Virus genome (UHGV): UHGV-1381150
Source of the DNA: a virus
Reading direction: 5' to 3' (one strand)
DNA length: 23,637 nucleotides
The notes under the pieces are model-generated. The model was not told the DNA's origin. It did no database searches and saw nothing but the letters and a program-made list of their open reading frames with translations. This document shows, in pieces, positions 20,735-21,125 of this stretch (positions are counted from its first letter, which is position 1; each line of letters begins with the position of its first letter). The position numbers and the translations under genes were made by a program.

Positions 20735-21125
20735 TCAGGCGGCTGCACCCGCCGGTTTCTCATACTTACTGATAGTGATCTCGACCTTCCCTTTCGGGAT
20801 AACCGGTCCCCACTCCACCAGCATTCTTTTCACCTGACTGTCGTCTTCCCACACACCCGCGTGGGTCAGGGCGTCAAACAGCGCCTTGTTATAGTTGTCC
20901 AGATCACGGCTCCGGTTATCCGGAAGGAAACAACACGATCTCCACTGAAGCAGGTGCCGACGTTGGTTTCGGCAGACGACGTAACTGCTCAACTATTGCT
21001 GCGCACGCCGCGCTCTGGAATTTTCGCCCCGCCGTGCTTATCAGGCTCTTACCAGCAAACGCCCCTTTGTTGGGGTGTCGCCAGTACGTGTTCACGCTGG
21101 GCGGAAAAGGCAGAATAAGCTTCAT
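20735..21125 (-). pseudogene. rusA: rusA Holliday-junction resolvase gene split by a +1 frameshift
   Basis: ORF 20916-21125 encodes the RusA-like N-terminus (MKLILPFPPSVNTYWRH...) and ORF 20735-20992 the C-terminus (...RDLDNYNKALFDALTHAGVWEDDSQV...) in another frame; the junction near 20921-20930 looks like a single extra base. Confidence 0.7.

What the first reader, a model, noticed from the sequence alone, without database searches (positions are those of the whole stretch)
20735..21125. rusA resolvase gene disrupted by an apparent single-base insertion
Seen: the RusA-like N-terminus (MKLILPFPPSVNTYWRH...VEIVLFPSG-stop) and C-terminus (...FLPDNRSRDLDNYNKALFDALTHAGVWEDDSQVKRMLVEWGPV...) lie in different frames overlapping at 20916-20992. 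Reading the junction, the minus-strand sequence TTT CCT TCC GGA TAA would give ...FPPDNRSRD... if one T were removed. Inference: a pseudogene, a sequencing or assembly indel in a short homopolymer, or a deliberately frameshifted gene.
Basis: seen in the sequence. Interest (0 to 1): 0.45.

Follow-up and report, generated by a model that had tools for sequence, protein, structure and literature searches.

The report
Frameshifted rusA pseudogene in a prophage
A phage gene for a DNA-junction-cutting enzyme (RusA) is broken by one extra base, and the same break is present in 26 complete E. coli genomes, so it is a real but ordinary dead gene rather than a sequencing mistake or a special recoding device.

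Summary
On the minus strand, a 391-nt rusA gene (20735-21125) is split into a 69-aa N-terminal ORF and a C-terminal part in the +1 frame. The cause is one extra T in the TT at 20924-20925. Removing it restores a 129-aa protein that matches Pfam RusA and E. coli RusA (PDB 1Q8R) end to end.

It is not an assembly error. A junction-specific probe finds the same insertion in 26 of 5,426 complete E. coli genomes; the three I inspected are annotated 'frameshifted'. The exact 69-aa product is also encoded on two independent contigs. The window has no other indel across 15.2 kb aligned to a 98.9%-identical prophage.

It is not a conserved recoding site. About 2,300 genomes and all 50 full-length phage records carry the intact gene, there is no frameshift signal, and an intact allele differs locally only by this T.

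All catalytic residues lie after the shift, so the gene is most likely inactive.

One minor point of interest: the lesion sits on at least four haplotypes, and in this window on flanks typical of an intact allele. That suggests spread by short-patch recombination. Overall an ordinary, already annotated kind of feature with low interest.

The parts
20735..21125 (-). The whole rusA pseudogene. It is 391 nt, against 390 nt in intact relatives.
   Evidence: PGAP annotates 391-nt 'frameshifted' RusA pseudogenes at the same place in E. coli 18SZHZ655Rt, ST540 and AVS0247.
20916..21125 (-). N-terminal ORF of 69 aa, ending in a premature TAA at 20916-20918. It contains none of the catalytic residues. 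Its ATG overlaps the TGA of the upstream LexA-DNA-binding-domain gene (ATGA at 21122-21125).
   Evidence: It has no Pfam or NCBIfam hit on its own. The exact sequence is on record from two other contigs.
20924..20925 (-). The TT dinucleotide, one T of which is the inserted base. Relatives have a single T or A here.
   Evidence: Alignments. The blastn indel list reports 'ins_in_window' at 20924.
20735..20923 (-). C-terminal coding remainder in the +1 frame (PDNRSRDLDNYNKALFDALTHAGVWEDD...), ending in TGA at 20735-20737. It encodes the equivalents of RusA D70, D72, K76 and D90/D91. It has no usable start codon of its own before those residues.
   Evidence: Pfam RusA E 3.6e-12 for this half. Alignment to 1Q8R and 2H8C. 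Residue roles come from PMC1636454.
20906..20910 (-). Two substitutions linked to the insertion. ATC to AGC (Ile to Ser, base 20910) is present in all 26 frameshifted genomes. CGC to CGT (synonymous, base 20906) is present in the 9-genome subgroup and in the window.
20911..20924 (-). A short quasi-palindrome, TCCGG-ATAA-CCGGA, that starts at the inserted T. Two independent deletion junctions found in other assemblies fall in its loop (GGATA|A).
   Evidence: Read. Junctions. No significant RNA structure (z +0.58).

Best explanation
This is a genuine, heritable one-base insertion that has turned the rusA (Holliday-junction resolvase) gene of a lambdoid, SfII/mEp460-like E. coli prophage into a pseudogene.

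Translation starts normally, coupled to the upstream gene by an ATGA overlap. It runs 67 correct codons, reads Ser-Gly out of frame and stops at TAA. The 69-aa product lacks every catalytic residue: the equivalents of RusA D70, D72, K76 and D90/91 are all encoded after the shift. The first in-frame start codon in the C-terminal frame (GTG, Val91) lies after the D70, D72 and K76 equivalents. No active resolvase is therefore expected.

The lesion arose once on a Ser-variant allele. It then picked up a synonymous C-to-T change and has been carried vertically. In this window it has also most likely been moved by short-patch recombination onto flanks typical of an intact allele. The rest of the phage region looks intact, which fits rusA being an accessory, dispensable gene.

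Shown here: the insertion, its recurrence in independent genomes, the position of the catalytic residues and the lack of recoding signals. Inferred: loss of activity, single origin, recombinational spread and dispensability.
For: Structure of the lesion: the single extra T and the premature TAA are seen.

Family membership of the repaired gene: the repaired protein is a full-length RusA by Pfam and by alignment to 1Q8R. The catalytic residue list comes from PMC1636454.

Recurrence: a 35-nt probe in which every 28-mer spans the insertion hits exactly 26 of 5,426 complete E. coli genomes, while 2,300 genomes carry this rusA. PGAP marks the inspected cases as 'frameshifted'. The exact 69-aa product is encoded on two further independent contigs. 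One of them is identical to the window at 20600-21217, which includes all of rusA, while differing at 27 of 2,680 positions overall.

Assembly quality: there are no indels in 15.2 kb of the window against the CFS3313 prophage at 98.9% identity, so the assembly is not indel-prone.

Origin: the nearest intact allele (strain 2013C-3033) is identical to the ST540 frameshift allele apart from the T, over the 130-nt segment aligned.

Mosaicism: the window differs from intact MLI107 only at 5 sites within 20906-20948. It differs from the frameshifted 18SZHZ655Rt allele only outside 20795-21034.
Against: No raw reads were available for this contig.

No expression or activity data exist, so a low level of spontaneous +1 slippage at UUU_C that restores some full-length protein cannot be excluded.

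The C-terminal frame carries no further disabling mutations in any frameshifted allele seen. That is what one would expect for a functional recoded gene. It is equally expected for a young lesion, or for one that keeps recombining with intact copies, given only 1-3% divergence.
Confidence: 0.9

Rival explanations
1. A sequencing or assembly artefact: the real phage has an intact rusA and the extra T was introduced during assembly or base-calling.
For: The insertion lengthens a one-base T to TT, which is a small homopolymer change. The window appears to be a single assembled contig of 23,637 nt, since the cluster look-up lists a longest contig of exactly that length. No reads could be inspected.
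Against: The identical insertion with its linked substitutions is in 26 complete genomes from many laboratories and countries. It is also in two other independent contigs. It co-segregates 26 of 26 with the AGC variant and falls into sub-haplotypes, which is a pattern of inheritance rather than of random or motif-driven error. More than 2,000 other copies with almost the same local sequence lack it. There are zero other indels in 15.2 kb of the window.
Confidence: 0.03
2. A programmed +1 ribosomal frameshift or other recoding event: the gene is deliberately split, and a regulated fraction of ribosomes shift (for example tRNA-Phe from UUU to UUC) to make full-length RusA.
For: A +1 shift anywhere in the 77-nt overlap (20916-20992) would yield a near-normal protein. 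UUU_C, two codons before the insertion, allows tRNA-Phe to re-pair in the +1 frame. The downstream frame is undamaged in all frameshifted alleles seen.
Against: The site is not conserved. About 1% of genomes with this gene have it and none of the 50 full-length phage records do. An intact allele differing only by the T exists.

No stimulators are present. There is no stop or rare codon in the A site at UUU_C. The only Shine-Dalgarno-like GGAG lies 9 nt upstream rather than about 3 nt as in prfB. The local RNA folds no better than shuffled sequence (z +0.58).

The same window holds a true programmed -1 site in the tail chaperone gene, with the canonical GGGAAAG heptamer, and rusA has nothing comparable.

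The literature search found no rusA recoding. The one mention, in PRFect, cites a 1991 paper identifying the ruvC gene product.
Confidence: 0.03
3. A split but functional gene: the 69-aa N-fragment and a separately translated C-fragment assemble, or the N-fragment alone has a new role such as junction binding or dominant-negative regulation.
For: The 69-aa ORF keeps its native translational coupling to the upstream gene, so it is probably made. The allele persists in several lineages.
Against: The C-frame has no ATG or GTG before Val91, which lies after the D70, D72 and K76 equivalents. The only upstream start is a TTG at 20992 with no Shine-Dalgarno sequence. The N-fragment has no detectable domain on its own. 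Its frequency of about 1% and its perfect linkage to one background are what neutral drift would give.
Confidence: 0.03

Closest known systems
Frameshifted RusA pseudogenes annotated by PGAP in E. coli ST540 (CF61_RS18435), 18SZHZ655Rt (KZO13_RS19410) and AVS0247 (QJB03_RS16895)
   Same: They have the same inserted T at the same position, the same Ser-variant background and the same 391-nt length. The neighbours are also the same: PerC, LexA-DNA-binding-domain protein, rusA, KilA-N, DUF968, Q.
   Different: The window's flanking rusA sequence is of the MLI107 (intact) type. It differs from those alleles at 7 sites 3' and 7-8 sites 5' of the central shared block within 20600-21160. No complete genome has exactly the window's allele. 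A human-gut metagenome contig does.
Intact rusA of phages mEp460 (mEp460_047), SfII (SfII_45), cdtI and Stx2a/Stx2c phages, and of about 2,270 complete E. coli genomes
   Same: They share 95-99% nucleotide identity over the 461-nt query and the same gene order.
   Different: They have one base fewer (390 nt, 129 aa) and an uninterrupted reading frame. Those aligned here have Ile rather than Ser at the NR(I/S)RD position.
E. coli K-12 RusA of the defective prophage DLP12 (PDB 1Q8R, 2H8C, 2H8E)
   Same: The repaired protein aligns over residues 6-116 of 120 (E 7.4e-18). The motifs PPSxNxYxRH, RDLDN, K76 and DD are conserved. Both are carried by lambdoid prophages (PMC10956419).
   Different: It is a distant paralogue. 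It scores 70 bits against the NCBIfam K-12 RusA model, whose cut-off is 200 bits. Here the frame is broken. DLP12 rusA is intact but silent until an IS element activates it.
Programmed -1 frameshift of the lambda-type tail assembly chaperone G/GT
   Same: Two overlapping ORFs in different frames encode one protein. An example lies in this same window (ORFs 1119..1541 and 703..1137, minus strand).
   Different: G/GT has the canonical GGGAAAG slippery heptamer (window 1143..1137), which is conserved in lambda-like phages. The rusA split has no such signal and is a rare polymorphism.

Membership tests
RusA Holliday-junction resolvase (Pfam PF05866) | A significant match to the family profile over its whole length | tested here: met
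   The repaired 129-aa sequence scores E 6.2e-15, 56.3 bits (cut-off 22.8), over profile positions 1-123 of 124. The C-half alone scores E 3.6e-12. The N-half alone has no hit.
RusA Holliday-junction resolvase (Pfam PF05866) | The catalytic residues D70, D72, K76 and D90/D91 (E. coli numbering) are present | tested here: met
   Alignment to 1Q8R and 2H8C places D74, D76, K80 and D94/D95 of the repaired protein at those positions. Residue roles come from PMC1636454. All of them are encoded downstream of the frameshift.
RusA Holliday-junction resolvase (Pfam PF05866) | One uninterrupted ORF of about 120-130 aa that encodes both halves, that is, a functional gene | tested here: not met
   The extra T at 20924-20925 leads to a TAA at 20916-20918 after 69 codons. 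The locus is therefore a RusA-family pseudogene, not a functional member.
RusA Holliday-junction resolvase (Pfam PF05866) | A homodimer that cleaves Holliday junctions 5' of CC in the presence of Mg2+ | not testable with these tools
   This needs biochemistry.
E. coli K-12 RusA equivalog (NCBIfam NF007305) | A score above the curated cut-off of 200 bits | tested here: not met
   70.3 bits for the repaired protein. It is a family-level relative, not the K-12 orthologue.
Programmed +1 ribosomal frameshift genes (prfB type) | The shift site is conserved across homologues | tested here: not met
   26 of 2,300 genomes carrying this gene have it, and none of the 50 full-length phage records do. An intact allele identical apart from the T exists.
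Programmed +1 ribosomal frameshift genes (prfB type) | A shift-prone codon with a slow A-site codon or stop, and a Shine-Dalgarno-like stimulator about 3 nt upstream | tested here: not met
   Read. The only re-pairing candidate is UUU_C, followed by an ordinary CCU codon. GGAG lies 9 nt upstream. The stop is two codons further on, after GGA, which cannot re-pair in the +1 frame.
Programmed +1 ribosomal frameshift genes (prfB type) | A stimulatory mRNA structure | tested here: not met
   The 101-nt window around the site folds at -24.8 kcal/mol against a shuffle mean of -26.8 (z +0.58).
Programmed +1 ribosomal frameshift genes (prfB type) | The trans-frame protein is detected | not testable with these tools
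   This needs a reporter assay or mass spectrometry.

The most novel reading that the evidence does not exclude
The 14-nt quasi-palindrome TCCGG-ATAA-CCGGA in this rusA family may be a fragile site. That would explain why a 1-nt insertion and two independent large-deletion endpoints fall within 8 nt of each other. The resulting null allele may then be copied between co-resident prophages by short-patch gene conversion, so that a dead gene spreads horizontally. Alternatively, a low level of +1 slippage at UUU_C may keep the split gene partly functional.
Probability: 0.1. Interest if true: 0.35.

Novelty: already known. Interest (0 to 1): 0.1.

Why it matters
It matters little beyond correct annotation. 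The locus should be called a frameshifted RusA pseudogene, not two hypothetical proteins, a sequencing error or a recoding site.

It shows that this lambdoid phage family tolerates loss of its junction resolvase.

It also gives a small, clean example of a null allele sitting on several recombinant backgrounds. That could serve as a marker for tracing recombination between co-resident prophages.

Tried and rejected
1. Sequencing error. Rejected because the junction-specific probe hits 26 complete genomes, there are independent contigs, and there is no other indel in 15.2 kb.

2. Programmed frameshift. No slippery site with a stimulator was read, there is no RNA structure and the site is not conserved. 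The literature search found nothing. PRFect's 'RusA/RuvC' remark cites a 1991 paper identifying the ruvC gene product.

3. Exact-match scan of one genome per species (genome contigs) for the 36-nt junction. It returned 0 hits, so the allele is absent from species-representative genomes. This said nothing about the source.

4. Reinitiation or a split gene. No start codon precedes the catalytic residues in the C-frame.

5. Quasi-palindrome-templated mutation. The inserted T does not increase arm complementarity (G is opposite), so templated correction does not explain it.

6. An invertase (gix/hix-like) pseudo-site at GGATAA as the cause of the shared deletion endpoints. Only 6 nt resemble a half-site and the junction is not at a site centre, so I dropped this.

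7. Looked for the two deletion junctions in complete genomes and for their partner sequences in phages. Neither junction is present in any complete genome and the partner DNA has no phage match. The native contexts of the partners were found in strains HS and O25b:H4, with only 2-5 nt of microhomology.

Full report
**Observation**

On the minus strand the window reads ...GTG GAG ATC GTG TTG TTT CCT TCC GGA TAA CCG GAG CCG TGA.... The mechanical ORF list gives two ORFs:
- 20916..21125 (-), 69 aa, MKLILPFPPSVNTYWRH...VEIVLFPSG.
- 20735..20992 (-), 85 aa, ...CCFLPDNRSRDLDNYNKALFDALTHAGVWEDDSQVKRMLVEWGPV....

Pfam RusA (PF05866) matches the C-terminal ORF (E 3.6e-12). After removal of one T it matches the joined 129-aa protein over profile positions 1-123 of 124 (E 6.2e-15). 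The N-terminal piece alone matches nothing. The joined protein aligns with E. coli RusA (PDB 1Q8R) over residues 6-116 of 120, E 7.4e-18. The two pieces are therefore the two halves of one rusA gene.

**Where the lesion is**

I aligned the region with the intact genes of phages mEp460 and SfII and of E. coli MLI107. There is one gapped column: the window has CCTTCC where the others have CC-TCC or CC-ACC. In window coordinates the extra base is one of the TT at 20924-20925 (minus strand), and the premature TAA is at 20916-20918. The locus is 391 nt (20735-21125), against 390 nt in intact relatives.

**Context**

The window is part of a lambdoid, SfII/mEp460-like E. coli phage or prophage. On the minus strand the order runs from tail, head, terminase and lysis genes, through methyltransferases and a defence pair, to Q, DUF968, KilA-N, rusA, a LexA-DNA-binding-domain protein, PerC and a replication protein.

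The rusA ATG overlaps the TGA of the upstream gene (ATGA at 21122-21125). The downstream KilA-N gene has its own AGGAG ribosome-binding site 20 nt after the rusA stop.

Every other gene in the 15 kb that aligns with the CFS3313 prophage keeps the annotated length.

**Is it an artefact? No**

1. Against the CFS3313 prophage (98.9% identity) the window has no indel at all over positions 1-15160. The only clean single-base indel in well-aligned sequence is the one at 20924.
2. A 61-nt junction query finds 9 complete E. coli genomes that are 100% identical. It finds 17 more that differ by one substitution but keep the extra base.
3. A 35-nt probe in which every 28-mer spans the insertion hits exactly 26 of 5,426 complete genomes, one place each. 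The strains come from China, Belgium, Switzerland and elsewhere. Where inspected, PGAP annotates a 391-nt 'RusA family crossover junction endodeoxyribonuclease, frameshifted' pseudogene.
4. The exact 69-aa product is on record from two further contigs, one from SRR25011209 (11.8 kb) and one from the human-gut metagenome run ERR636382 (2.7 kb). The latter is identical to the window from 20600 to 21217 but has 27 differences across its 2,680 nt, so it comes from a different strain.

**Is it a conserved recoding site? No**

The same rusA occurs in 2,300 of 5,426 complete genomes (2,979 places), and in 51 phage records, 50 of them at full length. All the best hits span 460 nt for the 461-nt query, which means they are intact. 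The insertion is thus a polymorphism in about 1% of carrier genomes.

The nearest intact allele (strain 2013C-3033) is identical to the ST540 frameshift allele apart from the T, over the 130-nt segment aligned.

Reading the 77-nt overlap for +1 re-pairing opportunities gives only UUU_C. It is followed by an ordinary CCU codon. The only GGAG lies 9 nt upstream rather than about 3 nt as in prfB. The stop comes after GGA, which cannot re-pair in the +1 frame.

The local RNA folds no better than shuffled sequence (z +0.58).

The same window contains a bona fide programmed -1 site, the canonical GGGAAAG at 1143..1137 between the tail chaperone ORFs G and T. This shows what a real signal looks like here.

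A literature search found no report of rusA recoding. The single 'RusA/RuvC' remark in the PRFect paper cites a 1991 paper identifying the ruvC gene product.

**Consequence for the protein**

RusA activity depends on D70, D72, K76 and D90/D91 (PMC1636454). In the repaired protein these correspond to D74, D76, K80 and D94/D95, all encoded after the shift at codon 68.

The first ATG or GTG in the C-terminal frame is the GVW valine at position 91. Reinitiation therefore cannot rescue the D70, D72 or K76 equivalents. The expected product is an inactive 69-aa fragment.

RusA is an accessory prophage function. In K-12 the DLP12 copy is silent unless activated by an IS insertion (PMC10956419). Tolerance of its loss is unsurprising, although this step is an inference. 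Some carrier genomes also have a second copy of this rusA ('places in record' 2).

**History of the allele**

All 26 frameshifted genomes carry ATC-to-AGC (Ile to Ser) 14 nt downstream. In one search, 17 records differ from the window's 61-mer at one position. In ST540, the one inspected, that position is CGC where the window has CGT. The other 9, and the window, have CGT. The simplest path is: intact Ser allele, then the +T insertion, then CGC to CGT.

At least four haplotypes carry the lesion: window/ERR636382, 18SZHZ655Rt/AVS0247, ST540 and SRR25011209.

The window differs from the intact MLI107 allele at only five positions, all within 20906-20948. It differs from the 18SZHZ655Rt frameshift allele only outside 20795-21034.

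The lesion with its linked SNPs therefore sits as a patch of 43-240 nt in an otherwise 'intact-type' background. That is the signature of short-patch recombination between related prophages. This is the only mildly interesting aspect.

**Side observation**

The protein cluster around the 69-aa fragment also contains other truncated RusA products that break right after ...VLFPPD. The DNA shows two different rearrangement junctions at the same nucleotide, CCGGATA|. One fuses rusA to the end of a lysis gene (three NCBI draft assemblies). The other fuses it to a Mu-like baseplate gene (two metagenome contigs). The native partner contexts share only 2-5 nt of microhomology.

Both endpoints lie in the loop of the quasi-palindrome TCCGG-ATAA-CCGGA, which begins at the inserted T. 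This hints at a fragile site.

The sample is biased, however, because the cluster collects truncations of similar length. Neither junction occurs in any complete genome. I record it as unexplained, not as a finding.

**Verdict**

The best explanation is an inherited one-base insertion that makes a RusA pseudogene (confidence 0.9). Assembly error, programmed frameshifting and a functional split gene are each about 0.03.

The same allele is already annotated as frameshifted in RefSeq genomes, so this is 'already known' and of low interest (0.1).

Noticed in passing
window 20911-20924; L011 4184-4226; L014 3973-4015: Two independent large-deletion or fusion junctions in other assemblies break rusA at the same nucleotide (CCGGATA|). 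This lies in the loop of the quasi-palindrome TCCGG-ATAA-CCGGA, 8 nt from the window's inserted T. One joins to the end of a lysis gene and the other to a Mu-like baseplate gene, with only 2-5 nt of microhomology. It may be a fragile site, but the sample is biased and neither junction is found in complete genomes.
   Followed up: partly
window 20795-21034: The rusA allele is a mosaic. A central patch of 43-240 nt carries the insertion plus its linked SNPs and matches frameshifted alleles. Both flanks match an intact (MLI107-type) allele. This suggests short-patch recombination between related prophages.
   Followed up: partly
window 703-1541 (minus strand); slippery site 1137-1143: Tail assembly chaperone genes G (1119..1541) and T (703..1137) overlap, with the canonical lambda-type -1 slippery heptamer GGGAAAG. 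This is a genuine programmed frameshift in the same window.
   Followed up: partly
window 15609-17461 (+): A two-gene cassette lies between the lysis/methylase genes and Q, on the opposite strand to the phage genes. It consists of a 386-aa DUF262/GmrSD_N protein (PADLOC NsnA E 6e-45, PD-T4-2_A E 5e-27) and a 229-aa HEPN-domain protein. It is likely a phage-carried anti-phage defence system. It is absent from the closest prophage, CFS3313, where this segment does not align.
   Followed up: partly
window 13964-15016 (-) and 17430-18470 (-): The phage carries two DNA methyltransferases, an N6/N4 type and a cytosine-5 type (PADLOC MTase_II E 3e-152 and 1e-88). They flank the defence cassette.
   Followed up: no
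window 20500-20640: The N-terminal part of the KilA-N gene is a sharply diverged mosaic segment relative to the ST540, CFS3313 and mEp460 versions (about 77 mismatches per 200 nt). It is nearly identical to the SfII, MLI107 and 18SZHZ655Rt versions. This is a module boundary just downstream of rusA.
   Followed up: no
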